Positions 5,380-52,946 are shown, counted from the stretch's first letter. The stretch is DNA of 64,000 bases from a virus (IMGVR_UViG_3300042402_002792); one strand, 5' to 3'. Notes: a model not told the origin generated them from the letters alone. Program-made: numbers and translations.

Positions 5380-5408
5380 TTGACAACGAATCTGCTATTA
5401 TGTATAAT
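5380..5408 (+). promoter_or_regulatory. Perfect sigma70 consensus promoter TTGACA-N17-TATAAT. The predicted start coincides with the 5' end of the tRNA-like gene at 5415
   Basis: TTGACA at 5380-5385, a 17-nt spacer, TATAAT at 5403-5408. Confidence 0.55.
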
Positions 5409-5414
5409 TACATT

Positions 5415-5523
5415 GTAGCCGTAACGCAAATAGGCAAAGCTCCAATAGCAACATTGTATGTTGTGAGGGACGGGGTCGAATATAGTTCGGTAACCCATGG
5501 AGGTTCGAAGCCTCCCGGCTACA
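5415..5523 (+). tRNA. Oversized (109-nt) tRNA-like gene of unresolved identity. A candidate anticodon arm GCAAC-ATTGTAT-GTTGT would give anticodon TGT
   Basis: Perfect acceptor GTAGCCG/CGGCTAC and perfect T-arm GGAGG-TTCGAAG-CCTCC. No CCA is encoded. A long internal hairpin GGGTCGAA-TATAG-TTCGGTAACCC sits in the variable region. The D-region is irregular. Confidence 0.3.
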
Positions 5524-5536
5524 TAGGACATTAAAA

Positions 5537-6133
5537 ATGATTATAAGAAATGTATTTGATACCCCAGTTGTAATACATCATTGTCATGACGCAGAAATAT
5601 TTGCTAACAAATCTATCAGAGATAGTATAGAGTTTGTGTTTGGTCTAGAAGAAATTAGAGAAACTATTGATCCATCTCAAGTAGGAAATGCTTTTACAAC
5701 TTGCAATCATTTTGATAAATTTCCGTTGATCTCTATGCCCGGAACTGAAAACTTATCAGAATGGGTAGCTAGGAAAATATTAGAAAGCAGTAAACACTTT
5801 GGATTTGAAAATTCTACCAAAATAGAATTTTTGAGAACATGGATAAATCTTTACTTCTATGGTTGTGAAGGAACCTGCCATCATCATCCAACAGACATTG
5901 ACGGTGTGGGAATTTTTTATATAAAGGTTCCTTCTAATAGTAGCCAATTAGTTTTTATCCGTGACGGCATCGATGGTACTAAGATTAATCAATATCCACC
6001 AGAACAACTTGCGTTTCAACCTGTTGTACAAGGAGACCTGATTATTCACAATCCTAAGGTGCCACATGCTATTTCTCAACATAAAGCTCACGATTCACGA
6101 ATATGTTTTATATACGAGTTTAAATATCATTAA
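5537..6133 (+). CDS. Hypothetical protein, possibly a divergent 2OG oxygenase-like paralog
   Basis: 198-aa ORF. His-rich motifs (CHHHPTD ... VPHAISQH). An AAGGA-type ribosome-binding site is absent but the gene packing is tight. Confidence 0.4.
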   Translation: MIIRNVFDTPVVIHHCHDAEIFANKSIRDSIEFVFGLEEIRETIDPSQVGNAFTTCNHFDKFPLISMPGTENLSEWVARKILESSKHFGFENSTKIEFLRTWINLYFYGCEGTCHHHPTDIDGVGIFYIKVPSNSSQLVFIRDGIDGTKINQYPPEQLAFQPVVQGDLIIHNPKVPHAISQHKAHDSRICFIYEFKYH

Positions 6134-6222
6134 GGAGAGTTGGCAGAGTGGTAATGCACCGGATTGCTAATCCGCCGTTCATGAAAGTGGGCGCACAGGT
6201 TCGAGTCCTGTACTCTCCGCCA
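6134..6222 (+). tRNA. tRNA-Ser (anticodon GCT), class II
   Basis: Perfect acceptor GGAGAGT/ACTCTCC. Anticodon loop TTGCTAA. Long variable arm. T-arm ACAGG-TTCGAGT-CCTGT. CCA is encoded. Confidence 0.6.
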
Positions 6223-6233
6223 TTATTTGTTAT

Positions 6234-6815: not shown

Positions 6816-6823
6816 TATTTTAT

Positions 6824-7232: not shown

Positions 7233-7235
7233 TCT

Positions 7236-7865: not shown

Positions 7866-8479
7866 AATACGCTTACTTTAACCCTACTATTGTAGCAATG
7901 GACGATGTACCTGATGATATTTTTCAATGGTGTGTAAATGCTGTTGAGCAAGCACATCTCAGAGAAGATCTCAATGATGCTGGTAATCCAGTATTAAGTA
8001 TTCGAGGCGGCCAACAAGTACAAATACTGCCTAACGAAATGGGTATAGATATAGAGCCGTTGGCTAGATACATTGAAGATATATGCACTCAATATATTGA
8101 TTCTGTACGTGCAAGTGCCGGCATTACCGATGAATTGCCTGTTAAACCTGTATTAGTTAGTGCATGGACTTTAAAACAAGGTCCAGGAGACTATCAGGCA
8201 CTACATAGTCATGAAGCACACTTGAGCGGTAATATCTACATACAAGTTCCAGAACTTGATCTAGATTCTACTAATACAGATTCGTGTATTGAATTTAGAT
8301 TGCCTACTGTACGTAACCCGGCAAGATTTGTATTCACAGACACTTGGCGGTTCAAACCTGAACGTGCTAAAATAATAATGTTTCCTAGTTATCTTCCACA
8401 CACAGTTTATCCGTGGACGGGTAAAGGGCATAGAATTAGTTTAGCATGGGATGCCAAATTAATTGACAAGAGTATCTAA
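7862..8479 (+). CDS. 2OG-Fe(II) oxygenase-like protein
   Basis: 205 aa. Motifs HSHEAH ... PHTVYP ... RISLAWD (distal His plus RxS). Confidence 0.45.
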   Translation: MKYAYFNPTIVAMDDVPDDIFQWCVNAVEQAHLREDLNDAGNPVLSIRGGQQVQILPNEMGIDIEPLARYIEDICTQYIDSVRASAGITDELPVKPVLVSAWTLKQGPGDYQALHSHEAHLSGNIYIQVPELDLDSTNTDSCIEFRLPTVRNPARFVFTDTWRFKPERAKIIMFPSYLPHTVYPWTGKGHRISLAWDAKLIDKSI

Positions 8480-8491
8480 AAGATATATAAT
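8463..8491 (+). promoter_or_regulatory. Perfect sigma70 consensus promoter TTGACA-N17-TATAAT, placed upstream of tRNA-Thr, the structured RNA and tRNA-Gly
   Basis: TTGACA at 8463-8468, 17-nt spacer, TATAAT at 8486-8491. It is followed by AGACACA, as in the promoter at 10240. Confidence 0.55.
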
Positions 8492-8524: not shown

Positions 8525-8599
8525 GCCGGATTAGCTCAGTGGTAGAGCAACCGCCTTGTAAGCGGTAGGTCGTCAGTTCAATCCCGACATCCGGCACCA
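8525..8599 (+). tRNA. tRNA-Thr (anticodon TGT)
   Basis: Perfect acceptor GCCGGAT/ATCCGGC. D-arm GCTC-AGTGGTA-GAGC. Anticodon stem ACCGC/GCGGT with loop CTTGTAA. T-loop TTCAATC. CCA is encoded. Confidence 0.65.
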
Positions 8600-10041: not shown

Positions 10042-10242
10042 ATGAAAACGCAAGTTAAAACAAGACCCGTTCGCCTACGTAATATTCGGAATAATCAAGA
10101 AGTTATCTGCGATGATTATACCAATGTTCGGACTATCGACGGGCAGGACTTCGTTGAAGTCCATTTTGAAAATCAAACTCGTAAATTTTGGCTTAACAAA
10201 GCACCCTTACAAAAGGTAAAAGAGAAGTCCAAAAAGAGTTGA
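10042..10242 (+). CDS. Small basic hypothetical protein of 66 aa
   Basis: AGGAG ribosome-binding site 7 nt upstream of the ATG. Lys/Arg-rich. Confidence 0.5.
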   Translation: MKTQVKTRPVRLRNIRNNQEVICDDYTNVRTIDGQDFVEVHFENQTRKFWLNKAPLQKVKEKSKKS

Positions 10243-10268
10243 CAAAGATTAAGATCTATACTATAATA
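10240..10268 (+). promoter_or_regulatory. Perfect sigma70 consensus promoter TTGACA-N17-TATAAT driving a ~500-nt non-coding leader or RNA upstream of the TROVE-like gene
   Basis: TTGACA at 10240-10245, 17-nt spacer, TATAAT at 10263-10268. Confidence 0.55.
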
Positions 10269-10274
10269 GACACA

Positions 10275-10781
10275 TAGCAAGCAGAAATGCTTGTAGAGAG
10301 TTTTAGGATCGGTACAGCAACATTCATATTACTATGGATCGTTGGACCCTATGGTAGTCAGCTGGAGTTGAAAGGTTCGCCTGGAGACTGTGAAGGTTGC
10401 TATTGAAATAGACCAACAAGCACAGAGTGATGGCCTGTGTAAAATAAAAGCAGTCAACAACGATCCTGTTAGTTTTGGATGACTACAGCAATTTAAATCA
10501 ATCGAACTAAAGCTATAGAAGGTGGCCGCGGGGCACAGTAGAAATACTGTTTTAGAAATAGACGCTCAAGGAATAGCTAGGCCGGCAAAGCCCGGATATG
10601 ATTTACATACAGAAAAATATGTAATAGGCAACATGAATGTTGCTAGGGTCTGAGTGCCGTAATTGGTCAGACCAGAAAATAAACAAATTGGCACGATCAT
10701 CCTGTTAAAGTTTTAGAATGTTAACAGCAACTTTAAATTTTCAAGCATATCGAAAAAAAATACATTCTGTGAGGTAATAAA
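10275..10781 (+). ncRNA. Candidate ~500-nt structured non-coding RNA, possibly Y-RNA-like given its Ro60/TROVE-like neighbour, or a long structured 5' UTR
   Basis: No open reading frame of 60 aa or more on the plus strand across ~500 nt downstream of a consensus promoter. Multiple hairpins (CAAGCA-GAAA-TGCTTG, GGTCTGA..TCAGACC, GCAACAT..ATGTTGC). A T-loop-like GGTTCGCC. Two copies of the ATCCTGTTA..TAACAGCAA hairpin motif. Confidence 0.3.
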
Positions 10782-12191
10782 ATGAACGCATTTGTAAACG
10801 CAATCGCAAATCAAGAAGCCCGTACCGCAAACGGTATGAAGGCACGTAAGTCAACAGCTAAGGCTACCGTTGACCTGTTCTACAACATCGGTGCAAGCCG
10901 TGGTAAGGACATCACAGGCGACTTCACAGCCGCTTATGTGGAAAACGCAGACGTAGCATTACGCATCGCACAATGGGCACGTGATGTCCGAGGTGGTGCA
11001 GGTGAACGTCAACTGTTCCGTGATATTCTAGTTCATCTAGAAAAGCGTGACCCAGACGCCGCTTTGGCTCTTCTAAAGAAGATTCCAGAAGTTGGACGTT
11101 GGGATGACATCTTTGTCTTCACCAACCCTGTTCTGAAGTCAGCCGCTTATACCATGTTGGGCGATGCCCTTCGTGCTAATAACGGTCTGGCTGCAAAGTG
11201 GACCCCCCGTAAGGGTCAAATTGCCGCTGAGATTCGTGCCTTCTTTGGCATGACTCCGAAGCAATATCGTAAGAGCCTTGTTGCTCTTACCAAGGTGGTT
11301 GAAACCCAGATGTGTGCTAACGACTGGGATAACATCAACTTTAGCCATGTTCCTTCTGTGGCTGCTCGCAACTACAAGAAGGCATTCAACCGTCACACTC
11401 CTCTGTTCGCAGAGTATGTGGCCAAGTTGGTGGCAGGGGATAAGACTGTTAAGGTTAACGCCAGCGCAATCTTCCCACATGATGTCCTAAAGGGCATCGC
11501 ACACAGCTACACTAAGCTGAACAAGACAGAAACCGACCATGTGATTGCACAATGGGACGCTCTGCCTAACTATGTAGGTGACGCAAGTATCCTACCTCTA
11601 GTTGACGTTTCTGGTTCGATGACAACATCTGTTCCAGGTTCAACTGTTCGCTGTTTAGATGTAGCAGTCGGTCTAGGCTTGTATCTTGCAGATAAGAACA
11701 AGGGTGTGTTCAAGGACACGTTCTTGACTTTCTCAAGCAAGCCACAACTGGCTACTCTAAAGGGTAACATTGTTGCAAAGGTTGACCAAATGTCAAGTAG
11801 CAACTGGGAAATGAGCACTAACTTGCATGCCGCTATGGACAAGATCCTAAGCGTTGCAGTTAAGGGTTCAGTACCGGCTAGTGACATGCCAAAGATGTTA
11901 CTCATCTTGAGTGACATGCAGTTTAACCAATGTGCTCGTTTCGACGACTCAGCAATGCAAATGATTGAACGAAAGTTCGCAGATGCAGGTTACACTGTTC
12001 CGCAAATTGTTTTCTGGAACCTAAACAGTTCTGGCAACGTGCCTGTAAAGGCAGACAAGAGTGGCGCGGCACTGGTAAGTGGTTTTAGTCCAAGCATCAT
12101 GACAGCTCTGTTGTCAGCGGATATGGACCAATTCACTCCAGAAGGTATCATGATGAAGACTGTAATGGTTCCTCGTTATGACCTTAACTAA
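10782..12191 (+). CDS. Ro60/TROVE-like or DUF2828-like protein with a C-terminal vWA (MIDAS) domain
   Basis: 469 aa. MIDAS motif DxSxS (LVDVSGSMTT) within a vWA-like C-terminal half, and a helical N-terminal half. Noticeably GC-richer than its neighbours. AGGTAAT ribosome-binding site. Confidence 0.5.
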   Translation: MNAFVNAIANQEARTANGMKARKSTAKATVDLFYNIGASRGKDITGDFTAAYVENADVALRIAQWARDVRGGAGERQLFRDILVHLEKRDPDAALALLKKIPEVGRWDDIFVFTNPVLKSAAYTMLGDALRANNGLAAKWTPRKGQIAAEIRAFFGMTPKQYRKSLVALTKVVETQMCANDWDNINFSHVPSVAARNYKKAFNRHTPLFAEYVAKLVAGDKTVKVNASAIFPHDVLKGIAHSYTKLNKTETDHVIAQWDALPNYVGDASILPLVDVSGSMTTSVPGSTVRCLDVAVGLGLYLADKNKGVFKDTFLTFSSKPQLATLKGNIVAKVDQMSSSNWEMSTNLHAAMDKILSVAVKGSVPASDMPKMLLILSDMQFNQCARFDDSAMQMIERKFADAGYTVPQIVFWNLNSSGNVPVKADKSGAALVSGFSPSIMTALLSADMDQFTPEGIMMKTVMVPRYDLN

Positions 12192-12210
12192 AAAGTATTA
12201 ACTTTTGAAA

Positions 12211-12236
12211 TAGCACCTTCGGGTGCTATTTTTTTA
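12211..12236 (+). terminator. Rho-independent terminator
   Basis: Hairpin TAGCACC-TTCG-GGTGCTA followed by T7. Confidence 0.6.
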
Positions 12237-12238
12237 GG

Positions 12239-12267
12239 TTGACGTAGCCAAAGTTTGGTGCTATAAT
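12239..12267 (+). promoter_or_regulatory. Perfect sigma70-type promoter TTGACG-N17-TATAAT. The ATG at 12274 lies 6 nt after the -10 element, implying a leaderless transcript
   Basis: TTGACG at 12239-12244, 17-nt spacer, TATAAT at 12262-12267. Confidence 0.5.
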
Positions 12268-12465
12268 ATGTGTATGTACAAAGTAATAAACAAAGAAATA
12301 GAAACAGAATTTCCTAGCTTAGATGCGGCAATGGCCTATGCTAAGACTTTAGATGCTTTTGTTAGTATCACAGGAAGCGAATTTGAAATCGTAGGTAAGT
12401 TTGGCGTTGATGAAGTAGCTGATCCAAACTACGACGGATGGATATCTAGAAAACAAGGAGTGTAA
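12268..12465 (+). CDS. Small hypothetical protein, probably initiating at ATG 12274 as a leaderless mRNA
   Basis: 65-aa ORF. A second in-frame ATG at 12274 coincides with the predicted transcription start. Confidence 0.45.
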   Translation: MCMYKVINKEIETEFPSLDAAMAYAKTLDAFVSITGSEFEIVGKFGVDEVADPNYDGWISRKQGV

Positions 12466-17103: not shown

Positions 17104-17129
17104 ACAGTATTTAACCTATAAATATTTTC

Positions 17130-25836: not shown

Positions 25837-25912
25837 TGCTCCTATTTATAAAAGTTTAATTTGGTTATTGTTAGCTACGATTTTTACTAGTAAAATTTGA
25901 AGATATAAGTAC

Positions 25913-25941
25913 TTGACTAAAGAAAAACAATTGTGTATAAT
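25913..25941 (+). promoter_or_regulatory. Perfect sigma70 consensus promoter TTGACT-N17-TATAAT, with an ATG 6 nt downstream (leaderless)
   Basis: TTGACT at 25913-25918, 17-nt spacer, TATAAT at 25936-25941, ATG at 25948. Confidence 0.5.
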
Positions 25942-25947: not shown

Positions 25948-26499
25948 ATGACTAAGATTTCAAAAAGCCTCCAACGGAATACATTTCAAAAGAAAAATTA
26001 CCTTGAGCGACAAGCTGAGAAAGGTAAAACTCCGGAAAACGACGAAGACACTCGTGCTATGCAAGAGTACTATGAATCTTGGGATGCCAACGAAGAGCAA
26101 AAAGAAGCAGATCCAAAATGGTACGAATACAATCTCGAAGCAGACTTACGTACTACCGATTGGATTTTGGAGAAAGTTAGAGCAGACGAACTCTATGCTC
26201 AAAACTTGTATGCGGCAATGTGTAACAATGATTTCATCAAACGTGAAATGTGGCCTATTCTCAAAGACCAAAAATGGTCATGTTCATGGCGCTACGCTGG
26301 TGGAATTGTTGCTCACATGCGTCAAGAAGGCGACTACATCGACTGGTATTGTAGCGGTATTCGAAATGACTACGATGATGAGAAAGAAAACAAACTAGCA
26401 GGCGGTCGTAACTATGCGCCCGAAAGTGTAGTTACTGAAGAAATTGAAAATGACCTGTATAAATTAGGCTGGTTAGTAGTAAAGGATAACAATGAATAG
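25948..26499 (+). CDS. Acidic hypothetical protein
   Basis: The ORF track starts at GTG 25933 inside the -10 element. The first ATG at 25948 is preferred. 183 aa. Confidence 0.45.
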   Translation: MTKISKSLQRNTFQKKNYLERQAEKGKTPENDEDTRAMQEYYESWDANEEQKEADPKWYEYNLEADLRTTDWILEKVRADELYAQNLYAAMCNNDFIKREMWPILKDQKWSCSWRYAGGIVAHMRQEGDYIDWYCSGIRNDYDDEKENKLAGGRNYAPESVVTEEIENDLYKLGWLVVKDNNE

Positions 26500-27239: not shown

Positions 27240-27902
27240 ATGAACACCATACTCGAACGTGTAAATTTTGTCTGCAAGAACGTTCGAGAAATTAATCGAA
27301 CGGGTGTTACATTTAAAAAACTTATAACTTCTATGAGGTCTCTGTTTAAACAACAGAACTTTGACCTTACAATCAAAACTAAAAAAGACAAATATCTAGA
27401 GTCTTTTGAGTTCTATGTTAATGCGTATTACGATCCAGAAGACGACTTTAATAATGATACTCCTATCGAAGTTATCATACACCATAACTTTGACGATGTT
27501 AGCGTGTTTACCAGTAGCCAATTAACAGACTTTCTTATACAGATTTACGATGCTACAGTACATGAGTATCGTCATCAACAACAAAGTGCCTCTAGAAATT
27601 ATCAAACATACAGCAGTCATATACAATCACCTTACGAAGAATATCTAACAGATCCTGATGAAGTAGACGCTTATGCACTTAGTATCGCCATAGAACTGCT
27701 AAGATTTATGCACAAAGAAAGAGCCAAAAAATACCTAACTAGAATACGCACTTTGGCTAAAATGCGTGTGGATAATGGTTATGTTAGTCCAAATTTAAAA
27801 GCCTATGTTGAACACTTTGGCATTAATGATACAACCAAAAAGTTATCCAAAAAGGTATATAAGCATCTAGATGCTATTGACAAAGAACAAATTTTCATGT
27901 AA
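27240..27902 (+). CDS. Hypothetical protein
   Basis: 220-aa ORF. Confidence 0.4.
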   Translation: MNTILERVNFVCKNVREINRTGVTFKKLITSMRSLFKQQNFDLTIKTKKDKYLESFEFYVNAYYDPEDDFNNDTPIEVIIHHNFDDVSVFTSSQLTDFLIQIYDATVHEYRHQQQSASRNYQTYSSHIQSPYEEYLTDPDEVDAYALSIAIELLRFMHKERAKKYLTRIRTLAKMRVDNGYVSPNLKAYVEHFGINDTTKKLSKKVYKHLDAIDKEQIFM

Positions 27903-27935
27903 AATAACGCTATCATAACACAGTTAGAGAGCGAC

Positions 27936-31427: not shown

Positions 31428-31600
31428 TTAGAGTAATAATTCTTTTTATTCTGTTGACACTAATGACTTTTGGTGCAATTTGGGGGGTGAAGAAATTATC
31501 CGGACAGCAGATTATAGACTTGACTCGTATCGGCATTTATGCTATAATTAGCTCATCTGTTGCAGTTGCACTGATGTTTATTTTGGTTGAAATTTTTTAA
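31424..31600 (+). CDS. Small two-helix membrane protein of 58 aa
   Basis: MIRVIILFILLTLMTFGAIWG...ALMFILVEIF. ATGA overlap with the upstream gene. It contains an internal promoter for the SPFH gene. Confidence 0.4.
   Translation: MIRVIILFILLTLMTFGAIWGVKKLSGQQIIDLTRIGIYAIISSSVAVALMFILVEIF
31520..31548 (+). promoter_or_regulatory. Perfect sigma70 consensus promoter TTGACT-N17-TATAAT, upstream of the SPFH-ClpP genes
   Basis: TTGACT at 31520-31525, 17-nt spacer, TATAAT at 31543-31548. Confidence 0.5.
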
Positions 31601-33066: not shown

Positions 33067-33792
33067 GTGTCTAGAAAACCGTTTAATTGGTCGTTGTTGG
33101 ACAGAGATAACTTGTACACAATGATGTACGAGTTAAAACCCTTTGTAGTGGGCAAACGTTTAGCCGTTCGAGCCCTACAAAAACTCCTCTCTGATCACTT
33201 AAAATATTATTTGCCCATTAGAGTTCGAATGGATCATGACTCTACACACGAAAAGGGGCTAGTATATATCGGTGGCGCATACTATTCTTATCATGATCAA
33301 GAAGAACATAGGCAGATAGAAATTGTCTTCAGCTATAAATCCAAAGATGCTACACTAGTATTATCAGATCATCGATGGGGGAGAATGTGCAAACTGTTTG
33401 CAGATACAATCTTGCACGAAGTTGTCCATATGCGACAATATCGAACTAGAAATTTCAAAGATATTCCGGGCTACCTAAGCACAGCATATTATGCTAGAGA
33501 TCGTCGAGAGCAAGAATACTACGGTCATAAAGACGAAATGGGTGCATTTGCCTTTAACATTGCCTGCGAGTTAAATGACAAATTTGGCAACGATTTTGAC
33601 GCAGCCAAGCACTATTTGGACAGCAATCTATCTAAACGTGCCAAAAAGTCCTGCTGGCACAAGTATATGAAAACATTTGATTGGAACCATAACCATCCAG
33701 TTATACGCTCTATGAAAAAGAAAATTATCCGAAACTTACCCTATGCCCAAATAGGCAAGCCATTTAAAACGCCAGACTACTTGACCTATTAA
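33067..33792 (+). CDS. Putative zinc metalloprotease (HExxH)
   Basis: 241 aa. GTG start with an AGGAG ribosome-binding site. LHEVVHMRQY zincin motif. Confidence 0.4.
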   Translation: MSRKPFNWSLLDRDNLYTMMYELKPFVVGKRLAVRALQKLLSDHLKYYLPIRVRMDHDSTHEKGLVYIGGAYYSYHDQEEHRQIEIVFSYKSKDATLVLSDHRWGRMCKLFADTILHEVVHMRQYRTRNFKDIPGYLSTAYYARDRREQEYYGHKDEMGAFAFNIACELNDKFGNDFDAAKHYLDSNLSKRAKKSCWHKYMKTFDWNHNHPVIRSMKKKIIRNLPYAQIGKPFKTPDYLTY

Positions 33793-33809
33793 TTTATTGA
33801 TGTTATAAT
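33781..33809 (+). promoter_or_regulatory. sigma70-type promoter TTGACC-N17-TATAAT, upstream of the ligase gene
   Basis: TTGACC at 33781-33786, 17-nt spacer, TATAAT at 33804-33809. TAGGAG ribosome-binding site at 33828. Confidence 0.5.
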
Positions 33810-37972: not shown

Positions 37973-38047
37973 AAGTCTAATTTTGTAATCATTTTGTAAT
38001 CTCTTTGTGTTTAAATAATTATATCACTAACACAAGGAGACTTACAG

Positions 38048-39048
38048 TGAAAAAACTATTTGCTATTCTATTAGCCTCGGTGGCTATGTCAGTTCAAGCT
38101 GATATCACAGGCGCAGGCGCAACGTTCCCGTTTCCAATCTATGCCAAATGGGCTGAAGGATATAAGAAAGCCACAGGTAACAGTTTAAACTATCAAAGTA
38201 TTGGTAGTTCTGGTGGTATTAGACAAATCAACGCAAAGACCGTCGACTTTGGTGCAACGGACGCTCCAGTAAGTGGAGAGAACTTAGACAAGATGGGACA
38301 AGTACAGTTTCCAGCAATCATCGGCGGAACAGTGCCAGTTGTCAACTTAGATGGTATCAAGCCCGGCGAACTAAAGATCACTGGACCTGTTATGGCTGAA
38401 GTATTCATGGGCAACATCACTAAGTGGAATGATCCTAAGTTAGTAGCATTGAATCCAGGCAAAACATTACCTAACACAGAAATCACTGTTGTCCATCGTG
38501 CTGATGGATCAGGAACAACATTTAACTGGACAGACTATCTTGCTACAGTAAGTCCTGAGTGGCTAGCTAAAGTAGGTCGTGGTGCCGCAGTTAAATGGCC
38601 CTCACCAAATAGTGTAGGTGGCAAAGGCAATGAAGGTGTTGCTGCCAACGTGAATCGTATCAAAGGCTCAATTGGTTATGTAGAGTATGCTTATGTTAAG
38701 AAGAACAACATGGTGTTTCTACAACTACAAAACAAGTCAGGTAAGTTTGTTAGTCCAGATGACCTAACATTTGCTGCCGCAGCCGATGGTGCTGATTGGT
38801 TTAGTGTCCCCGGTATGGGATTAAGCATTGTGGATCAGAAGAATCCTAATGCATGGCCAGTAAGTTCAGCAAGTTTTATCATTATGTACAAAGAGCCAAA
38901 AAACAAAGCCACTAGCGATGAAGTATTAAAGTTCTTTGATTGGGCATTTAAGAATGGTAAAAAGGATGCCATAGATTTAGACTATGTTCCATTACCGGAT
39001 GCACTAACAAAGCAAATACGTGAACGTGTTTGGACACAAATTAAATAA
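38048..39048 (+). CDS. pstS: Periplasmic phosphate-binding protein PstS
   Basis: The ORF track's 38005 start was trimmed to GTG 38048 (AAGGAG ribosome-binding site 7 nt upstream). Signal peptide MKKLFAILLASVAMSVQA. Conserved PstS motifs (GATFPFPIYAKWA, SGGI, GATDAP, GSIGYVEYAY). GC-richer than neighbours. Confidence 0.8.
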
Positions 39049-39878: not shown

Positions 39879-39911
39879 AACCTGTAGATTTAACTCTACA
39901 GGTTTTCTTTT
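39879..39911 (+). terminator. Rho-independent terminator
   Basis: 10-bp perfect hairpin AACCTGTAGA-TTTAAC-TCTACAGGTT followed by TTCTTTT. Confidence 0.65.
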
Positions 39912-39940
39912 GACTAATTATCTGCGTATATAAATAATCG

Positions 39941-47163: not shown

Positions 47164-48426
47164 ATGACAAATAAAATATGTCCTTTGCCGTGGAATCAAT
47201 TAATGATTCAGCAGAACGGAGACTTTAGATTGTGCTGTCAATGTGTACATCCTCCTTTTGGTAAGACAGATATGCGTATTCAGGAACAGTCTATAAATGA
47301 TGCACGTAACAGTGAACTTCACCAACGGGTGCGGACTCAGATGCTTGCAGGAGAAGAGCCCACAGAATGTAAGTTATGCTGGGATGAAGAAAGCCATGGG
47401 CTGAGTAGTAAACGACTTCACATGCTCAAACATTACCCTATAGACAAAATTAAACAAACTACATCGGGCTACATAGACGTAAATGAATTTCCGTTATTGT
47501 ATCTCGATCTGCGATTTGGGAACTTATGTAACATGAAGTGTCGAAGTTGTGGCCCGGCAGATAGCAGTCTTTGGTACGAAGATGTAGAAGCTGTTAATCC
47601 GCCCGAGTATATCGCGTTTGATTTTTACCTGTCTAAACAGTATCAGCTAAAGAAGATTAACAATACGTGGACCTTAAAGGACGATGACTTTGCATGGTAT
47701 GAAAGTGAATCGTTTTGGGATATGATGCAACACATAGTTCCGCAAATAGATAGGCTATACCTAACAGGTGGGGAGCCGTTAATTAATAAAGCACAATGGC
47801 GATTGCTAGACCTGTGTATTGAATTGGGGGTTAGCAATAAGATTGTATTAGAATACAACAGTAATATGACACGAGTTCCCGATACAGCTTTTGATATATG
47901 GAAACAGTTTAAAGAAGTACACATCGGTTGCAGTATTGATGCGGTGGAAGATTTAGCCTACTATATTCGTTATCCAGGCAAGTGGGACGATATACAAGCT
48001 AACATTATTAAATTAGGTAACGCAGATTGCCGCAACTTAGTTGCAAAATTTTCACCCACTATTAGTGTGTTTAATATTTTAGGATTCCTTGAGCTTGTTG
48101 ATTGGCTACACTCTAATCCTCTACCAAGAATTAGGGTAGTACCGTCGTTTCATATTTTGGAAGGACCGGGATTCCAAAATATACAATCTCTACCAAAAGA
48201 AACCAAAGATTGGATAGTAGTACAGTACAACGAATGGTATGCTGGCGCTCCGTGGCGTATGCGCCACAAAACTCAATTCGATACTATTTTAAGTTATATG
48301 CAGGCGCAGGATCGTAGTCATTTACTAGCAGACTTAAAAGAACATACTGCAAAATTGGACAACCATCGTAACCAACAGCTAGCAGACTACGTTCCTTGGC
48401 TAGCCAAAATATTAGAAAACACTTGA
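47164..48426 (+). CDS. Radical SAM enzyme (family B)
   Basis: The ORF track's 47074 start was trimmed to ATG 47164 (MTNKICPLPW). N-terminal LCCQC...CKLCW motif. Core CNMKCRSCGPADSSLW. Confidence 0.55.
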   Translation: MTNKICPLPWNQLMIQQNGDFRLCCQCVHPPFGKTDMRIQEQSINDARNSELHQRVRTQMLAGEEPTECKLCWDEESHGLSSKRLHMLKHYPIDKIKQTTSGYIDVNEFPLLYLDLRFGNLCNMKCRSCGPADSSLWYEDVEAVNPPEYIAFDFYLSKQYQLKKINNTWTLKDDDFAWYESESFWDMMQHIVPQIDRLYLTGGEPLINKAQWRLLDLCIELGVSNKIVLEYNSNMTRVPDTAFDIWKQFKEVHIGCSIDAVEDLAYYIRYPGKWDDIQANIIKLGNADCRNLVAKFSPTISVFNILGFLELVDWLHSNPLPRIRVVPSFHILEGPGFQNIQSLPKETKDWIVVQYNEWYAGAPWRMRHKTQFDTILSYMQAQDRSHLLADLKEHTAKLDNHRNQQLADYVPWLAKILENT

Positions 48427-48451
48427 CGTAACCCACTGTTGACTGTATAAT
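48423..48451 (+). promoter_or_regulatory. sigma70-type promoter TTGACG-N17-TATAAT
   Basis: TTGACG at 48423-48428, 17-nt spacer, TATAAT at 48446-48451. AAGGAG ribosome-binding site at 48471 before ATG 48484. Confidence 0.5.
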
Positions 48452-48483: not shown

Positions 48484-49665
48484 ATGGCAACTAAACTCAA
48501 AAAAGAATCTATTGCACTTCGTGAAAAAGCCAAACGTGACTACAGTCCAAGTTGGGTTGGTTGCGAGTCTTGGGATGAGAATAAGTTCCTGCGTTTCTTT
48601 CACAGTTCTATGCAATACTATCGTATGGAATCTACGGGCAAAGAACTCAAAAGCAAAGTTATTGACTGGATGGGCAAGAATGGTTACGACAAAAAGACTA
48701 TTGCTAGTTTTAAGAAAACTAAAGACAATCGTTGCTCTCTGACTGTAGGTTCTATTGCTGCCTGTTTGCTTAAAGGCATGCCTAGTACACGCCCTGACTT
48801 TAATAACGGTCGTGACACTGCCACTTGGTTAGGTGCAGAGATTGCTAAGATTATTGATGAAGGTAAGAACGACATTGATGAAGAAGCAGTTAAGGCAGCT
48901 GAAGATGCAAAGCCTGCCGTCTACGTTCCTAGTATCCAAGAACGTGTTCGAGAAGCAGCCTATCTAATGACTGAAGAAATTGAAGATGCTTATCAAAGTT
49001 TCAGTCAAGATCCCGAAAACTTTGATCCCAAGGCATTTAAGATTCTTAACTTGCTCAAAGGTAAGGGAGCTAAGGCAGCTCACGCACGTATTATTCGTGA
49101 TTACTATGCTCGCGATCTTGCAGAGCTTAATGAACTTGCTAGCGGCAATGCTGACGAACAGTTGAAAGAAGGTTACAAGCATCGTAGCCGTAAGCAGATC
49201 AAGGCGTTTATTGCATTCTTGCAGGAAATTGAAAGTGCCTGCAACATGCTGATGCAAGAAGCTAAAGTTAACAAAAAGCCTCGCAAAACTAAAGCAGTTA
49301 GCAAGGACAAGCTGGTAGCAAAGCTCAAGTACAAGAAGACTGACGAGCCGCTGAAGCTGGTTAGTGTTAACCCTGCAGACATTGTTGGTGCTCAAGAGCT
49401 GTGGATTTACAATAGTAAAACTCGTAAATTGGGCAAGTATGTAGCAGAAGAATTTAAAGAGTTGGGTATTAAAGGCACTACAATTACCGGTTTTAGTGAA
49501 ATGAAATCTGTACAAAAGACATTACGTAAGCCTGCAGATCAACTTAAAGAGTTCAAAGCCGCAGGCAAAGTAGCACTACGCAAGTTTTTAGAAGACATTA
49601 ATGCTGTAGATACTAAAATGAATGGTCGCATTAATGAAGAAACTATTCTACTTAAAGTAGCATAA
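48484..49665 (+). CDS. Hypothetical protein
   Basis: 393 aa. Good ribosome-binding site. GC-richer than neighbours. Confidence 0.5.
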   Translation: MATKLKKESIALREKAKRDYSPSWVGCESWDENKFLRFFHSSMQYYRMESTGKELKSKVIDWMGKNGYDKKTIASFKKTKDNRCSLTVGSIAACLLKGMPSTRPDFNNGRDTATWLGAEIAKIIDEGKNDIDEEAVKAAEDAKPAVYVPSIQERVREAAYLMTEEIEDAYQSFSQDPENFDPKAFKILNLLKGKGAKAAHARIIRDYYARDLAELNELASGNADEQLKEGYKHRSRKQIKAFIAFLQEIESACNMLMQEAKVNKKPRKTKAVSKDKLVAKLKYKKTDEPLKLVSVNPADIVGAQELWIYNSKTRKLGKYVAEEFKELGIKGTTITGFSEMKSVQKTLRKPADQLKEFKAAGKVALRKFLEDINAVDTKMNGRINEETILLKVA

Positions 49666-51050: not shown

Positions 51051-51625
51051 TAGCATGGGCAATAGGCAACGGACAAAGTCGTTTAAGTTTTGATTTAACA
51101 TCAATAACAGACTATACTGTTGGTTGTAACGCACTTTATCGAGATTTTTATTCTAGTGAACTAGTAGCGGTTGATCGTAGAATGGTCGCAGAAATACTAA
51201 CTAGTTCTTATGCTAACCCTGTATACACAAGACCCGATTGGTGTAATGAGTTTAGGGATTCGCGGGTGCGATCTTTGCCAGACATACCGTTCACTGGTCC
51301 TCAAAAAGCTGACATACCATTTCACTGGAACAGCGGACCGTACGCTATCCTGTTAGCCTGTTTACAATATCCTAAAGAAATTAATTTAGTAGGTTTTGAT
51401 CTTTGGGGTGATCAACAACTAGTTAACAACGTCTACAAAGGTACTAGTAATTACGACCCTGTTTCTCATCGGGCTATTGATCCTAGTCATTGGATTTATC
51501 AATTTAAAAAAATCACTACTCATTTTAATTCTATACATTTCATACAACACCAAACGATCAATTGGGCGATTCCGGACGAGTGGACCAGCATCAAGAACTT
51601 GACAATTAAATACTTTCCTGTATAA
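51047..51625 (+). CDS. Hypothetical protein
   Basis: 192-aa ORF with ATGA overlap to the upstream gene. Confidence 0.4.
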   Translation: MIAWAIGNGQSRLSFDLTSITDYTVGCNALYRDFYSSELVAVDRRMVAEILTSSYANPVYTRPDWCNEFRDSRVRSLPDIPFTGPQKADIPFHWNSGPYAILLACLQYPKEINLVGFDLWGDQQLVNNVYKGTSNYDPVSHRAIDPSHWIYQFKKITTHFNSIHFIQHQTINWAIPDEWTSIKNLTIKYFPV

Positions 51626-51711
51626 TTACTACAGCGGCCTTATACGTCATTCAACCCGCTATATAAATTCTGCATGTCGTCAAACTTGCTCATACATTAA
51701 GGAGACTAGAG

Positions 51712-52239
51712 ATGGCAAAATATCTTTCAACAAAAACTTACGGCAACGACAGAGGTCTGTCATGCTGCTTTAGACAATGGCGATCTACCCATTCACATTG
51801 TTCTTTACTTCACGGTTATTCAATTGGTATTCGATTGGTATTCGAATCTGACACGTTAGATGATCGTAATTGGGTTATGGACTTTGGCGGACTTAAAGCA
51901 TTTAAAGAATGGTCAGAGTGGCAATTCGATCATACATTAGTCATCGGTAAAGACGATCCAGAACGTGGAACATTTGTAGAACTAAACAAAATTCAAGGCG
52001 GTTTCAAAAACATGGGCATCATTGATCTACGTATTGTAGACGGTGTTGGTTGTGAACTGTTTGCTGAACTTGCTTATCGTACAATGAATGAAATTTTACA
52101 AGCTTACAAAGAAGGTCGAGGATGGACTCATCCAGATGGTCGTGTATTTGAAGCAAGGTATCCTACTGGTCAAAGTGTTCGACTTCGTTCAGCAGAAGTA
52201 TTTGAACACGAAGGTAATTCAGCTACTTACGAAGGCTGA
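51712..52239 (+). CDS. 6-pyruvoyl-tetrahydropterin synthase (PTPS/QueD)-like protein
   Basis: 175 aa. Cys...His-Gly motif (HSHCSLLHGYS) and PTPS-like size and fold. AGGAG ribosome-binding site. Confidence 0.45.
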   Translation: MAKYLSTKTYGNDRGLSCCFRQWRSTHSHCSLLHGYSIGIRLVFESDTLDDRNWVMDFGGLKAFKEWSEWQFDHTLVIGKDDPERGTFVELNKIQGGFKNMGIIDLRIVDGVGCELFAELAYRTMNEILQAYKEGRGWTHPDGRVFEARYPTGQSVRLRSAEVFEHEGNSATYEG

Positions 52240-52934
52240 TGTTAAACGTTATTTGTTTAAAACACGGGATCAAATATGGTCCCGAGTATGTTAACAATCT
52301 TTACAATATGATTCAGAGGCACTTAACTGTGCCTCATCGTTTTGTTTGTTTTACTGAAGACGTCTCAGGATTAGATCCTAAAATTGAAATTAAACCGTTA
52401 GACGGTCCCAAACTAAAAGGTTGGTGGTGGAAACCTTATCTTTTTAAACAAGGTCATTTTCCAAACGGGGATACTAATCTATTTTTTGATTTAGACATGG
52501 TCATAATCAAAAACATTGATAATATAGCACAATATATGCCTGACAGCTTTGTAGGACTTAGAGATGTTGGCCGTGTATTTCAAAGAGGTAATGATCGATT
52601 AGGCAGTGCTGTATTAAAATGGGCAGCAAATCAGTATTCAGAAATATGGACTCAATTAGAATCTAACCCCCAGTATGCTGGTCAGTTTCACGGAGATCAA
52701 GATTATATCTGGTGCTTCCATAGAGACAAAATAAAATTTTTTCCAGATAAATGGATTATGAGCTACAAGTGGGAAGTTAGAGATCGGACAGAACTTGTTC
52801 GTATAAATGGACGTTTTAACTTCGATACGGTTAAAGATGTAACACCTGATCCAGATACTAGTGTACTAGCGTTTCACGGCAGTCCAGATCCTCACGAAGT
52901 TAAAGATCCGATTATAGTTGACAACTGGCGATAA
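52239..52934 (+). CDS. Hypothetical protein
   Basis: 231-aa ORF. Confidence 0.4.
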   Translation: MLNVICLKHGIKYGPEYVNNLYNMIQRHLTVPHRFVCFTEDVSGLDPKIEIKPLDGPKLKGWWWKPYLFKQGHFPNGDTNLFFDLDMVIIKNIDNIAQYMPDSFVGLRDVGRVFQRGNDRLGSAVLKWAANQYSEIWTQLESNPQYAGQFHGDQDYIWCFHRDKIKFFPDKWIMSYKWEVRDRTELVRINGRFNFDTVKDVTPDPDTSVLAFHGSPDPHEVKDPIIVDNWR

Positions 52935-52946
52935 ATCGTCTATAAT
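52918..52946 (+). promoter_or_regulatory. Perfect sigma70 consensus promoter TTGACA-N17-TATAAT, with an ATG 6 nt downstream (leaderless)
   Basis: TTGACA at 52918-52923, 17-nt spacer, TATAAT at 52941-52946, ATG at 52953. Confidence 0.5.

What the first reader, a model, noticed from the sequence alone, without database searches (positions are those of the whole stretch)
5380..52946. Nine perfect or near-perfect sigma70 consensus promoters (TTGACN-17-TATAAT). Three are positioned for leaderless translation (TATAAT-N6-ATG)
The promoters are at 5380, 8463, 10240, 12239, 25913, 31520, 33781, 48423 and 52918. All have an exact TATAAT and a TTGAC(A/G/T/C) -35 element with a 17-nt spacer, which is far better than typical host promoters. 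In three cases (ATG at 12274, 25948, 52953) the start codon lies 6 nt after the -10 element, so the mRNA would begin at or next to the AUG. This is a systematic use of leaderless early transcripts. Promoter-led genes tend to be the GC-richer, host-like ones (TROVE-like, SPFH-ClpP, ligase, UvdE-like). This suggests a host with a canonical sigma70 -35/-10 architecture and an early-gene regulon.
Basis: seen in the sequence. Interest (0 to 1): 0.6.

Follow-up and report, generated by a model that had tools for sequence, protein, structure and literature searches.

The report
Phage sigma70-type promoters, some leaderless
The nine sites are real, conserved housekeeping-type promoters of an uncultured giant freshwater phage, and some start transcription exactly at a start codon; this is a well-supported but largely familiar kind of phage gene control.

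Summary
TTGAC-N18-TATAAT occurs 9 times, all on the + strand, against 0.11 expected by chance. The only correction is 10239 instead of 10240. A tenth site with a 16-nt spacer lies at 51599.

The window comes from a ~364-kb uncultured freshwater jumbo phage. In about 2 Mb of related contigs the motif is almost strand-exclusive and shows sigma70 spacing:
- 17-nt spacer: 254 on the + strand, 2 on the - strand.
- 16-nt spacer: 44 against 1.
- 18-nt spacer: 6 against 1.

The hexamers are conserved upstream of orthologous genes while spacers and flanks diverge.

TATAAT-N6-ATG recurs across the family. ATG sits at N6 in 102 of 441 promoter contexts, and at most 16 at any other offset. Sixteen protein families are involved. 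Homologue N-termini confirm the starts at 12274 and 25948. For UvdE the conserved Met is the second ATG (52974), so that case is ambiguous.

Not all nine sites drive mRNAs. Site 5380 starts a tRNA-like RNA at +1, site 8463 drives tRNA-Thr, and site 10239 drives a conserved 0.5-kb non-coding stretch.

A second, T4-late-like class (TATAAATA) fronts the AT-rich clusters. This fits an "early" role for the sigma70-type set but does not prove it. The layout matches T4-type and Rak2-like phages (CBB, PA5oct). This is a new member of a known kind.

The parts
5380..5408 (+). Promoter 1: TTGACA-17-TATAAT, with predicted +1 at G5415
   Evidence: The same promoter followed by N6/N7 and GTAGCCG is found in the related loci L326-L334.
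5415..5523 (+). tRNA-like RNA whose 5' end coincides with the predicted start site. It has a 7-bp acceptor-like stem, a GGAGG-UUCGAAG-CCUCC T-arm, a non-tRNA 'anticodon' arm and a long variable arm.
   Evidence: The fold has z = -2.8. The same architecture appears in 4 diverged versions. ARAGORN detects it only at a lowered threshold. There is no Rfam hit.
8463..8491 (+). Promoter 2: TTGACA-17-TATAAT, with predicted +1 at A8498, 27 nt before tRNA-Thr(tgt) at 8525-8599
10239..10267 (+). Promoter 3: TTGACA-17-TATAAT, with predicted +1 at A10274
   Evidence: A promoter is present about 490-550 nt upstream of the DUF2828 gene in many relatives.
10274..10781 (+). Conserved non-coding transcribed region with three copies of a 25-nt motif (10302, 10473, 10712). 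It precedes the Ro60-related DUF2828/DUF7788 gene at 10782-12191.
   Evidence: Identity is 50-90% in 52 relatives, against 26% upstream of the -35 element. There is no Rfam hit.
12207..12232 (+). Intrinsic terminator (11-bp stem plus T-run) closing the DUF2828 unit, directly upstream of promoter 4
12239..12267 (+). Promoter 4: TTGACG-17-TATAAT with an extended -10 TGc. Predicted +1 is the A of ATG 12274.
   Evidence: A promoter 40-80 nt after the DUF2828 gene is present in nearly all relatives.
12274..12465 (+). Leaderless-type ORF of 63 aa (MYKVINKEIE...)
   Evidence: Homologues in relatives start at the same Met, always TATAAT-N6-ATG, with varying N6 sequence.
25913..25941 (+). Promoter 5: TTGACT-17-TATAAT in a divergent intergenic region. 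Predicted +1 is the A of ATG 25948.
25948..26499 (+). Leaderless-type ORF of 183 aa (MTKISKSLQR...)
   Evidence: Among 53 unique orthologous contexts, 13 carry a promoter. In all 13 the ATG is at N6 (11 contexts) or N5 (2 contexts). The other contexts abut an upstream gene.
31520..31548 (+). Promoter 6: TTGACT-17-TATAAT (TGc) inside a 58-codon ORF. Predicted +1 is A31555, giving a 55-nt leader before SPFH 31610-32404 and ClpP 32420-33010.
   Evidence: It is present in 3 of the 4 orthologous contexts recovered.
33781..33809 (+). Promoter 7: TTGACC-17-TATAAT (TGt). The leader is about 24 nt with an AGGAG Shine-Dalgarno sequence, and the ATP-dependent DNA ligase (33840-35153) starts at GTG.
   Evidence: It is conserved in 58 of 59 unique orthologous contexts.
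48423..48451 (+). Promoter 8: TTGACG-17-TATAAT. Predicted +1 is A48458, giving a 26-nt conserved leader (ATTGTTTAAC...AGGAG) before the conserved 393-aa gene at 48484-49665.
   Evidence: The phylogenetic footprint across 80 relatives is. The protein family is of unknown function.
51599..51626 (+).
   Evidence: It is conserved upstream of the PTPS leader in relatives.
51633..51711 (+). Conserved pseudoknotted 5' leader of the PTPS/QueD-like gene (51712-52239). P1 pairs 51633-51637 with 51656-51660. P2 pairs 51645-51651 with 51675-51681.
   Evidence: Covariation in both helices across 46 versions. There is no Rfam hit.
52918..52946 (+). Promoter 9: TTGACA-17-TATAAT. The -35 element overlaps the last codons (VDNW) of the upstream glycosyltransferase-like gene. 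Predicted +1 is the A of ATG 52953.
52953..54002 (+). UvdE-like gene. The first ATG (52953) is at N6. The second in-frame ATG (52974, MTKRIG...) matches the N-terminus of homologues.
   Evidence: Pfam UvdE. The homologue comparison, including three relatives with TA(T/C)A(C/A)T-N6-ATG at the conserved Met, is.
27877..27905 (+). Probable weaker promoter: TTGACA-17-TAAAAT, before the gene at 27936
   Evidence: Conservation was not checked.
17117..17124 (+). TATAAATA (T4-late-like), then N5 and ATG 17130 (radical SAM gene)
25843..25850 (-). TATAAATA, then N6 and ATG 25836 on the - strand. It heads the AT-rich minus-strand cluster.
39929..39936 (+). TATAAATA, then N4 and ATG 39941. It overlaps the ambiguous TTGACT site at 39910, which follows a terminator-like hairpin.
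54307..54314 (-). TATAAATA, then 22 nt including AAGGAGG, then ATG at about 54284 on the - strand (Ala/Pro/Lys-repeat protein)

Best explanation
The nine sites, plus one at 51599, are genuine housekeeping-sigma (sigma70/RpoD-type) promoters. They belong to an uncultured ~364-kb freshwater jumbo phage whose transcription scheme resembles that of T4-type and Rak2-like phages.

Inferred mechanism:
- The host RNA polymerase holoenzyme binds -35 TTGACA and -10 TATAAT(A) across a 17-nt spacer. The host is probably a Comamonadaceae betaproteobacterium.
- Transcription starts at the purine 7 nt after the -10 element. This position is a conserved Y-A-T in the family logo.

What follows the start site differs from site to site:
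- Sites 31520, 33781, 48423 and 51599 have short leaders with an AGGAG ribosome-binding site.
- Site 8463 drives a tRNA precursor.
- Site 5380 produces a tRNA-like RNA that begins at +1.
- Site 10239 produces a 0.5-kb conserved non-coding stretch ahead of a Ro60-related gene.
- At sites 12239, 25913 and 52918 the +1 A is the A of an AUG. The mRNA therefore has no leader and would be translated without a Shine-Dalgarno sequence, by direct ribosome binding to the 5'-terminal AUG.

A separate TATAAATA class, of the T4 late type, serves other genes. The sigma70-type set is therefore most likely the early or host-polymerase class.

Shown here: motif statistics, geometry, conservation and start-codon identity. 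Inferred: which polymerase reads the sites, the exact start sites, the timing, and that leaderless translation occurs.
For: Motif statistics:
- 9 exact sites against 0.11 expected, all on the + strand.
- In related contigs, 154 sites on the + strand against 2 on the - strand in 1.35 Mb.
- Spacer distribution: 17 nt, 254 against 2; 16 nt, 44 against 1; 18 nt, 6 against 1; other lengths about 0-3.

Conservation:
- Upstream of the 393-aa gene, only the -35, the -10 and the leader are conserved across relatives of 65-90% amino-acid identity.
- The ligase promoter is kept in 58 of 59 contexts.
- The promoter after the DUF2828 gene is kept in nearly all relatives.
- The family logo adds TATAATA and a Y-A-T at N5-N7, with A at 63% and T at 80%.

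Leaderless arrangement:
- ATG lies at N6 in 102 of 441 contexts, against at most 16 at any other offset. Of these, 64 open ORFs of at least 40 aa, in 17 families, one of which is a false ORF.
- In loci fetched around genes that are not themselves leaderless, 47 of 234 contexts have ATG at N6, and 12 open an ORF.
- Orthologues of the 63-aa and 183-aa genes start at the same Met. Whenever a promoter is present they keep N6, or N5 in three contexts of the 183-aa family.

Second promoter class:
- 127 of 159 TATAAATA contexts precede an ATG-ORF within 45 nt, peaking at N18-22. Control octamers give 0-24%.

Host clue:
- PstS is 71-81% identical to that of Limnohabitans, Acidovorax and Hydrogenophaga.

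Precedents:
- PA5oct has 32 TTGAC/TATAATA promoters and depends on host RNAP (PMC7318152).
- CBB has RpoD-like promoters plus ATAAATA late promoters (PMC5259590).
- T4-type phages carry sigma70-consensus early promoters in hyperplastic regions and before tRNA genes (PMC2839356, PMC1524935).
Against: - There are no transcript data, so start sites, timing and the polymerase are all inferred.
- The host is unknown. The PstS similarity shows gene flow, not infection.
- In several cases (ligase, UvdE) the -35 element overlaps conserved C-terminal codons of the upstream gene. Part of its conservation could therefore be protein-coding constraint.
- For UvdE the homologue N-terminus is the second ATG, and the closest relative with a promoter has a 30-nt leader with GAGG and a GTG start.
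- One promoter precedes a highly conserved 393-aa gene that sits next to a tail-fibre-like gene. That is not an obviously early position.
- The family-wide leaderless counts are inflated, because two of the locus sets were fetched around leaderless genes.
- Only 64 kb of the genome was seen, so a phage-encoded sigma factor cannot be excluded.
Confidence: 0.8

Rival explanations
1. [quoted passage not shown] It would then not report on host promoter architecture.
For: Related jumbo phages encode sigma-like proteins; CBB has a sigma70 region 3/4 protein and a gp55-like factor (PMC5259590). Only 64 kb of about 364 kb was inspected, and no transcription factor genes were seen in it.
Against: The motif is the textbook bacterial consensus, with the 17±1 spacer rule, TG-rich extended -10 positions and a Y-R start. 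PA5oct, the related jumbo phage shown to depend on host RNAP, uses the same TTGAC/TATAATA motif. A distinct TATAAATA class already accounts for a phage-directed mode.
Confidence: 0.08
2. The N6-ATG geometry is real, but the genes are mostly translated from longer read-through transcripts or from downstream starts. "Leaderless translation" would then be incidental or minor, and the conserved +1 A-T(-G) would simply be the preferred initial transcribed sequence.
For: - T at +2 is conserved in 80% of all promoters, and ATG occurs at N6 in many contexts without a long ORF: 38 of 102 and 35 of 47.
- The PTPS leader begins with AUG in many relatives but is a structured RNA, not an ORF.
- UvdE homologues start at the second ATG.
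- Most orthologues of the 183-aa gene have no promoter and abut an upstream gene.
Against: - For the 63-aa and 183-aa families the N6 ATG is the homologue-supported N-terminus.
- No promoter-bearing orthologue has a leader or a Shine-Dalgarno sequence.
- Promoter 4 is preceded by a strong terminator, which limits read-through.
- Sixteen distinct protein families show the arrangement, and the offset peak is very sharp.
Confidence: 0.15
3. The repeated consensus promoters are mainly recombination cassettes, like the promoter-early stem-loop (PeSL) elements of T4-type phages. Their conservation would then reflect modular gene shuffling as much as transcription. This is not exclusive with promoter function.
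For: - The window is an accessory-gene and tRNA-rich region.
- The terminator-plus-promoter unit after the DUF2828 gene is conserved while the gene behind it differs between relatives. Families of 63-81 aa, 71 aa, 136 aa and 185-197 aa are seen.
- PeSLs are described as sigma70-consensus promoters plus stem-loops that mediate such swaps (PMC2839356, PMC4122927).
Against: Only one of the nine sites (12239) has an adjacent upstream stem-loop, as does the extra site at 39910. Most sites overlap the 3' end of a coding gene. Spacer and flank sequences are not conserved between sites, so little homology is available for recombination.
Confidence: 0.15
4. The matches are a chance or compositional by-product of an AT-rich genome.
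For: The lenient promoter scan finds 77 sites against 67.5 expected in the first 20 kb, so weak matches are uninformative.
Against: The exact motif occurs 9 times against 0.11 expected. It is strand-exclusive, restricted in spacer length and phylogenetically conserved.
Confidence: 0.01

Closest known systems
RpoD-like (early) promoters of Rak2-like/Arenbergviridae jumbo phages (CBB, GAP32, PA5oct)
   Same: - Genome size class is similar (287-356 kb against about 364 kb).
- The motifs match: TTGAC and TATAATA.
- These phages rely on host RNAP (PA5oct: PMC7318152).
- They also have a separate ATAAATA late-type motif (CBB: PMC5259590).
- The 393-aa gene of the window has its best cultured-phage homologue in PA5oct.
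   Different: - There is no nucleotide similarity to any cultured phage, and protein identity is only about 33%.
- The likely host is a freshwater betaproteobacterium.
- A leaderless subset is not reported for those phages.
- Here the promoters also define the 5' ends of structured RNAs.
T4-type early promoters and PeSL cassettes in hyperplastic regions
   Same: - Sigma70-consensus promoters are concentrated in accessory-gene regions, in front of ORFans and tRNA genes.
- Some are paired with a terminator stem-loop.
- The gene content behind them is variable (PMC2839356, PMC4122927, PMC1524935).
   Different: - Only 1-2 sites here have the stem-loop component.
- The AT-rich UP-like signal is weak: A or T is 79-81% at the three positions 5-7 nt upstream of the -35.
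- Recombination at these sites was not demonstrated.
Leaderless mRNAs with the -10 element next to the ORF (Actinobacteria, Deinococcus-Thermus; lambda cI from PRM)
   Same: The start codon lies about 6-7 nt after a TANNNT/TATAAT box, there is no Shine-Dalgarno sequence, and an AUG start is required. The same in-silico signature is used in PMC3160421 and PMC12340547. The lambda cI example is from my own knowledge.
   Different: - Here a full -35/-10 consensus is present.
- The setting is a virulent-type jumbo phage whose other genes use strong AGGAG sites.
- The likely host phylum is not known for frequent leaderless genes.
- phiKZ showed no leaderless transcripts, and AR9 UTRs are 26-491 nt.
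T4 late promoters (TATAAATA, gp55-dependent)
   Same: The octamer is identical, lies just upstream of gene starts on either strand, and gives a short fixed distance to the ATG. The T4 motif spans -13 to -6 (PMC1524935).
   Different: - No gp55, gp33 or gp45 homologue was looked for or seen in the window.
- In the window the motif fronts auxiliary genes (radical SAM, ATP-grasp cluster) as well as a tail-fibre-like gene.

Membership tests
Sigma70 (housekeeping) type bacterial promoter | -35 hexamer TTGACA and -10 hexamer TATAAT | tested here: met
   Eleven or twelve of 12 positions match at all nine sites. In the family logo the sixth -35 position is A in 67% of cases.
Sigma70 (housekeeping) type bacterial promoter | Spacer of 17±1 bp between the hexamers | tested here: met
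   Unique contexts in the phage family: 254 with 17 bp, 44 with 16 bp, 6 with 18 bp, and at most 3 with 13-15 or 19-21 bp.
Sigma70 (housekeeping) type bacterial promoter | Located upstream of, and oriented toward, a gene or RNA | tested here: met
   All nine sites lie at gene or RNA 5' boundaries on the coding strand. The family-wide strand ratio is 254 to 2.
Sigma70 (housekeeping) type bacterial promoter | Purifying selection on the hexamers relative to spacers and flanks | tested here: met
   Footprints upstream of the 393-aa gene, the ligase and the gene after DUF2828.
Sigma70 (housekeeping) type bacterial promoter | Transcription initiates about 7 nt downstream of the -10 element and depends on the host sigma70 holoenzyme | not testable with these tools
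   Only indirect evidence: a conserved Y-A-T at N5-N7. This needs 5'-end mapping or in vitro transcription.
Leaderless mRNA | The transcript 5' end coincides with the start codon (5' UTR of 0 to about 5 nt) | not testable with these tools
   Predicted from the fixed TATAAT-N6-ATG geometry. No RNA data are available.
Leaderless mRNA | The start codon is AUG and is the true N-terminus of the protein | tested here: met
   Met for 12274 and 25948, where homologue N-termini coincide. For 52953 it is inconclusive, because homologues start at the second ATG, 52974.
Leaderless mRNA | The arrangement is maintained in orthologues while the intervening sequence changes | tested here: met
   The N6 sequence varies while the spacing is fixed in the 63-aa family, the 183-aa family (N6 or N5) and the ~100-aa family.
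PeSL (promoter-early stem-loop) cassette of T4-type phages | A sigma70-consensus promoter joined to an adjacent upstream terminator stem-loop | tested here: not met
   A stem-loop is present only at 12207-12232, and at the extra site 39910. The other eight sites overlap coding 3' ends or a tRNA.
PeSL (promoter-early stem-loop) cassette of T4-type phages | Marks points of gene replacement between related genomes | tested here: inconclusive
   Different genes follow the conserved terminator-promoter after DUF2828 in different relatives. Breakpoints were not mapped.
T4-type late promoter | TATAAATA octamer closely upstream of gene starts, in the right orientation | tested here: met
   All 4 sites in the window meet this. 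In the family, 127 of 159 contexts do, against 0-24% for control octamers.
T4-type late promoter | Dependence on a gp55-like sigma factor with gp33 and the sliding clamp | not tested
   No such genes were found in the 64-kb window by Pfam. The rest of the genome was not available.

The most novel reading that the evidence does not exclude
This phage family may use promoter placement as a general way to set functional 5' ends with single-nucleotide precision. The same TATAAT-N6 geometry would start three kinds of product:
- leaderless mRNAs for a set of small proteins, presumably made early;
- a tRNA-like RNA whose acceptor stem begins at +1, so that it carries a 5'-triphosphate and needs no RNase P cleavage;
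- a pseudoknotted, riboswitch-like leader.

Leaderless starts also occur at a subset of the T4-late-like TATAAATA promoters. If the phage alters Shine-Dalgarno-dependent initiation during takeover, leaderless messages would form a protected translation class.
Probability: 0.2. Interest if true: 0.65.

Novelty: new member of a known kind. Interest (0 to 1): 0.4.

Why it matters
The result gives a confident promoter map for an abundant but uncultured group of freshwater jumbo phages. It has two classes: host-type TTGACA-17-TATAAT(A) and T4-late-type TATAAATA.

Uses of the map:
- annotating transcription units;
- correcting start codons, for example 12274 rather than 12268;
- supporting a proteobacterial (Comamonadaceae) host;
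- flagging RNAs that gene callers miss.

The recurrent leaderless design is uncommon for phages of Proteobacteria and can be tested with simple reporters. The promoters themselves are what one expects from T4-like and Rak2-like phages. The finding therefore confirms existing knowledge more than it changes it.

Tried and rejected
- Megablast of 20 kb against cultured phages found no match, so no annotated relative could be used.
- Rfam at gathering threshold returned only tRNAs. Permissive Rfam scans of the three long "leaders" returned nothing credible. They are therefore not known riboswitches, Y RNAs or tmRNA.
- The search for related loci with the 2OG-Fe oxygenase gene at 5537 found no relatives. 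An exact DNA pattern was used instead.
- fold_alignment of the tRNA-like RNA was spoiled by my wrong coordinates for one locus and by included flanks. It was replaced by single-sequence folds.
- MAFFT plus alifold on the 0.5-kb region upstream of the DUF2828 gene was inconclusive because of indels.
- MAFFT misaligned the 5' strand of the PTPS leader between two subtypes. Pairs were counted by anchored parsing instead.
- TATAAATA is not over-represented in count (4 against 8.8 expected). Its significance comes only from position.
- Cyanophage origin was considered, because of PstS, 2OG-Fe oxygenases, Trp halogenase and a best DUF2828 hit in a Synechococcus phage. It was set aside because PstS groups with Burkholderiales and strong AGGAG sites are used.
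- PeSL membership was rejected for most sites because they lack a stem-loop.
- Literature searches found no description of this phage group or of leaderless transcripts in jumbo phages.

Full report
**Observation**

An exact search for TTGAC-N18-TATAAT finds nine matches, all on the + strand: 5380, 8463, 10239, 12239, 25913, 31520, 33781, 48423 and 52918. Dinucleotide-preserving shuffles give a mean of 0.11 and never more than 2.

The three ATGs at 12274, 25948 and 52953 lie exactly six bases after the -10 box and open ORFs of 63, 183 and 349 codons. A scan allowing other spacers or one mismatch adds:
- a tenth exact site with a 16-nt spacer at 51599;
- a likely site at 27877 (TAAAAT);
- an ambiguous one at 39910.

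Weak consensus matches in general are no more frequent than chance: 77 against 67.5 in the first 20 kb. Only the near-perfect class carries information.

**Source of the window**

The window carries 25 tRNA genes by ARAGORN and 26 by Rfam, all in the first 10 kb. It has no nucleotide match among cultured phages. A protein from it is found on a 363,992-bp metagenomic contig and on several shorter freshwater contigs. IMG/VR holds hundreds of relatives, including contigs of 345-356 kb.

The gene content is that of an accessory region of a large myovirus:
- many 2OG-Fe(II) oxygenases, a tryptophan halogenase, fatty-acid desaturases, several radical SAM enzymes and an ATP-grasp enzyme;
- SPFH plus ClpP, Bax1-I, PstS, IscA and PTPS/QueD;
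- an ATP-dependent ligase, UvdE, and a Ro60-related DUF2828/DUF7788 protein;
- a 2499-aa protein with a T4 gp9/10-like N-terminus.

The phage PstS is 71-81% identical to PstS of Limnohabitans, Acidovorax, Hydrogenophaga, Polaromonas and other Burkholderiales. This is the best available clue to the host. It is an inference from gene flow, not proof of infection.

**Are they promoters?**

Four independent lines say yes.

1. Strand and spacing. In 1.35 Mb of related loci oriented on a conserved gene, the exact motif occurs 154 times on that strand and twice on the other. Counting unique contexts in about 2 Mb gives 254 against 2 for a 17-nt spacer, 44 against 1 for 16 nt, 6 against 1 for 18 nt, and essentially none for other lengths.
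2. Position. All nine -10 boxes sit at the 5' boundary of a gene or RNA.
3. Conservation. Upstream of the 393-aa gene, relatives at 65-90% protein identity keep TTGACA, TATAAT (or TATACT) and the 26-nt leader. The spacer and everything upstream of the -35 are unrelated. The ligase promoter is kept in 58 of 59 unique contexts. The promoter just after the DUF2828 gene is kept in nearly all relatives.
4. Extra logo features expected of a sigma70 site. These are G or C before the -35, A after the -10 (TATAATA), TG-rich positions at -18 to -14, and a Y-A-T at N5-N7 where initiation is expected.

One caveat applies. For the ligase and UvdE promoters the -35 element lies in conserved C-terminal codons of the upstream gene. 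There, only the -10 element and the spacing are clean evidence.

**The leaderless claim**

Across 441 unique promoter contexts, an ATG lies at N6 in 102. No other offset from 0 to 15 exceeds 16. Of the 102, 64 open ORFs of at least 40 codons, falling into 17 protein families. One of these families is spurious: it is the structured PTPS leader read as an ORF.

These totals are inflated, because two locus sets were fetched around leaderless genes. In the two sets fetched around other genes the figures are 47 of 234 with ATG at N6 and 12 with a long ORF.

Gene by gene:
- **63-aa gene (12274).** Relatives begin at the same Met (MYKV...), always at N6, with different N6 sequences. This also shows that 12274, not 12268, is the start.
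- **183-aa gene (25948).** Thirteen of 53 unique orthologous contexts have a promoter. In all thirteen the ATG is at N6 (11 contexts) or N5 (2 contexts). The remaining contexts abut an upstream gene. None has a promoter followed by a leader (the N values printed there are one too high).
- **UvdE (52953).** Homologues start at M(T/I/K)KRI, which is the window's second ATG at 52974. Three relatives (L035, L078, L079) put TA(T/C)A(C/A)T-N6 directly before that Met. The closest promoter-bearing relative (L009) has a 30-nt leader with GAGG and a GTG start. In the window, a transcript starting at 52953 would carry a 5'-terminal AUG in frame, seven codons upstream. Either start would give a functional protein, so this case is ambiguous.

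**What the other promoters drive**

- Promoter 2 (8463) lies 27 nt before tRNA-Thr.
- Promoter 1 (5380) does not simply have a 122-nt leader. The stretch 5415-5523 folds into a tRNA-like cloverleaf. It has a 7-bp acceptor-like stem that begins at the predicted +1, a canonical T-arm, a long variable arm and a non-tRNA "anticodon" arm. Four diverged versions in relatives keep the promoter, the N6/N7 spacing and the architecture, while the inner hairpins differ in sequence. It lies between tRNA-Arg(tcg) and tRNA-Ser(gct) in the tRNA array. Neither ARAGORN at default settings nor Rfam recognises it.
- Promoter 3 (10239) is followed by 508 nt without an ORF. This stretch is 50-90% conserved in 52 relatives, whereas conservation drops to 26% upstream of the -35. 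Its best-conserved blocks are three copies of a 25-nt motif. It precedes the Ro60-related gene.
- The extra promoter at 51599 starts, at +1, a leader with a covarying H-type pseudoknot in front of the PTPS/QueD-like gene.
- Promoters 6, 7 and 8 have leaders of 24-55 nt. Promoters 7 and 8 carry AGGAG sites and promoter 6 an AAGGA site.

**A second promoter class**

TATAAATA is not frequent in the window: four copies against 8.8 expected. All four are intergenic and point at a gene start 4-22 nt away.

In the family, 127 of 159 unique TATAAATA contexts are followed within 45 nt by an ATG opening at least 60 codons. There is a main peak at N18-22 and a minor one at N4-7. Control octamers differing in the last base give 0-24%. 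This is the T4 late-promoter consensus, which spans -13 to -6 in T4 (PMC1524935).

In the window, TATAAATA or its ATAAATA core fronts the AT-rich minus-strand clusters and the tail-fibre-like gene at 49710. These are the genes that lack sigma70-type promoters. It makes an early, host-polymerase role for the sigma70-type class likely by analogy, but timing was not measured.

**Comparison with known systems**

- The jumbo phage PA5oct depends on host RNAP and has 32 promoters with TTGAC and TATAATA boxes (PMC7318152).
- The 356-kb phage CBB has RpoD-like promoters concentrated in a presumed early region, plus an ATAAATA late-type motif and a gp55-like factor (PMC5259590).
- T4-type phages carry sigma70-consensus early promoters in hyperplastic regions, before ORFans and tRNA genes. 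These are often joined to terminator stem-loops as PeSL cassettes that mediate gene shuffling (PMC2839356, PMC4122927, PMC1524935).

The present set matches this scheme. The PeSL definition itself is met only at 12207-12267 and perhaps at 39910.

Leaderless transcripts were not found in phiKZ, and AR9 leaders are 26-491 nt. The -10-next-to-ORF signature is established for Actinobacteria and Deinococcus-Thermus (PMC3160421, PMC12340547). A conserved leaderless subset in a jumbo phage of a probable betaproteobacterial host is therefore a modest novelty within a known framework.

**Verdict**

The sites are real sigma70-type promoters of a T4/Rak2-like transcription programme (confidence about 0.8). 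Leaderless expression is well supported by comparative evidence for 12274 and 25948 and is ambiguous for UvdE. The "early regulon" label is plausible but untested.

The finding is a new member of a known kind. The more unusual items are by-products of the check: a promoter-defined tRNA-like RNA, a pseudoknotted QueD leader absent from Rfam, and a long conserved RNA upstream of a Ro60-related gene.

Noticed in passing
window 5415-5523 (+); relatives L326-L334: A tRNA-like RNA starts at the predicted +1 of promoter 1. It has an acceptor-like stem GUAGCCG/CGGCUAC, a canonical T-arm, a D-like loop AAAUAGGCAAA, a long variable arm and a hairpin that is not an anticodon arm. Standard tRNA and Rfam searches do not call it. 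It is conserved together with its promoter in relatives, where it sits in the tRNA array just before tRNA-Ser(gct).
   Followed up: partly
window 51599-51711 (+); alignment A1: A tenth promoter (16-nt spacer) starts a conserved H-type pseudoknot leader in front of the PTPS/QueD-like gene.
- P1 variants: UGCGG/CCGCA, AGCGG/CCGCU, AGAGG/CCUCU.
- An A-rich linker and an invariant CUGC follow.
- P2 variants: GGCAU/AUGCC, GACGC/GUGUC, GGCG/CGCC, ACGUCAU/AUGUCGU.
Both helices show compensatory changes across 46 versions. There is no Rfam hit. It is a possible riboswitch; a 7-deazaguanine or preQ1-type ligand is only a guess from the gene context.
   Followed up: partly
window 10274-10781 (+): About 510 nt of conserved non-coding sequence lie between promoter 3 and the Ro60-related DUF2828/DUF7788 gene. 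Three copies of the motif AGTTTT(A/G)GA-N5-6-ACAGCAA(C/T), at 10302, 10473 and 10712, are its best-conserved blocks. No Rfam family matches. It may be partner RNA(s) of the RNA-binding protein or an autoregulatory leader.
   Followed up: partly
window 17117-17124 (+), 25843-25850 (-), 39929-39936 (+), 54307-54314 (-); also the ATAAATA core at 20194 (-), 22622 (+), 23999 (-), 47149 (-), 49683 (+): A second promoter-like class is identical to the T4 late consensus TATAAATA. In the family, 80% of copies lie within 45 nt of a gene start, mostly at N18-22, and a minority at N4-7 would again give leaderless or near-leaderless messages. In the window, TATAAATA or its ATAAATA core fronts the AT-rich minus-strand clusters.
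   Followed up: yes
window 38005-39048 (+); loci L165-L244: The phage PstS is 71-81% identical to PstS of Limnohabitans, Acidovorax, Hydrogenophaga, Polaromonas and other Burkholderiales. This points to a Comamonadaceae host, even though the phage GC is about 37% and it carries a large tRNA set.
   Followed up: partly
relatives L005, L007, L010, L012, L048, L051, L055 (upstream of UvdE): In these relatives the UvdE promoter carries an inverted repeat, GGACATAG-N12-CTATGTCC, bracketing the -10 box. It looks like an operator for a repressor. It is absent from the window's copy.
   Followed up: no
relatives L085-L164, downstream of the DUF2828 gene (window 12207-12465): The terminator-plus-promoter unit is conserved, but the leaderless gene behind it differs between relatives: a 63-81-aa MYKV/MIEVKSK family, a 71-aa MVTKKE protein, a 136-aa protein and a 185-197-aa MKSKHL family. 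This suggests cassette-like gene replacement at the promoter.
   Followed up: partly
window 3413-3508 (+): Rfam calls a 96-nt tRNA here that ARAGORN misses at default settings. With introns allowed, ARAGORN reads a 99-nt tRNA-Ala(cgc)-like gene with an insertion in the anticodon region.
   Followed up: no
window about 53988-54285 (-): A small minus-strand gene encodes an Ala/Pro/Lys-repeat protein (AKPKAP repeats, 50% GC). It resembles a histone H1-like DNA-binding protein. It has a strong AAGGAGG site and a TATAAATA 22 nt upstream of its ATG.
   Followed up: no
window 55511-63010 (+): A 2499-aa protein combines a T4 gp9/10-like N-terminal domain with three copies of a ubiquitin-E1 FCCH-like domain. 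It is presumably a baseplate or fibre protein.
   Followed up: no
family-wide (loci L005-L084, L335-L414): Many promoters place an ATG at +1 without a long ORF behind it: 35 of 47 N6-ATG contexts in the less biased set. T at +2 is conserved in 80% of promoters. 5'-terminal AUGs on leadered transcripts may have a role of their own, or may simply reflect a preferred initial transcribed sequence.
   Followed up: no
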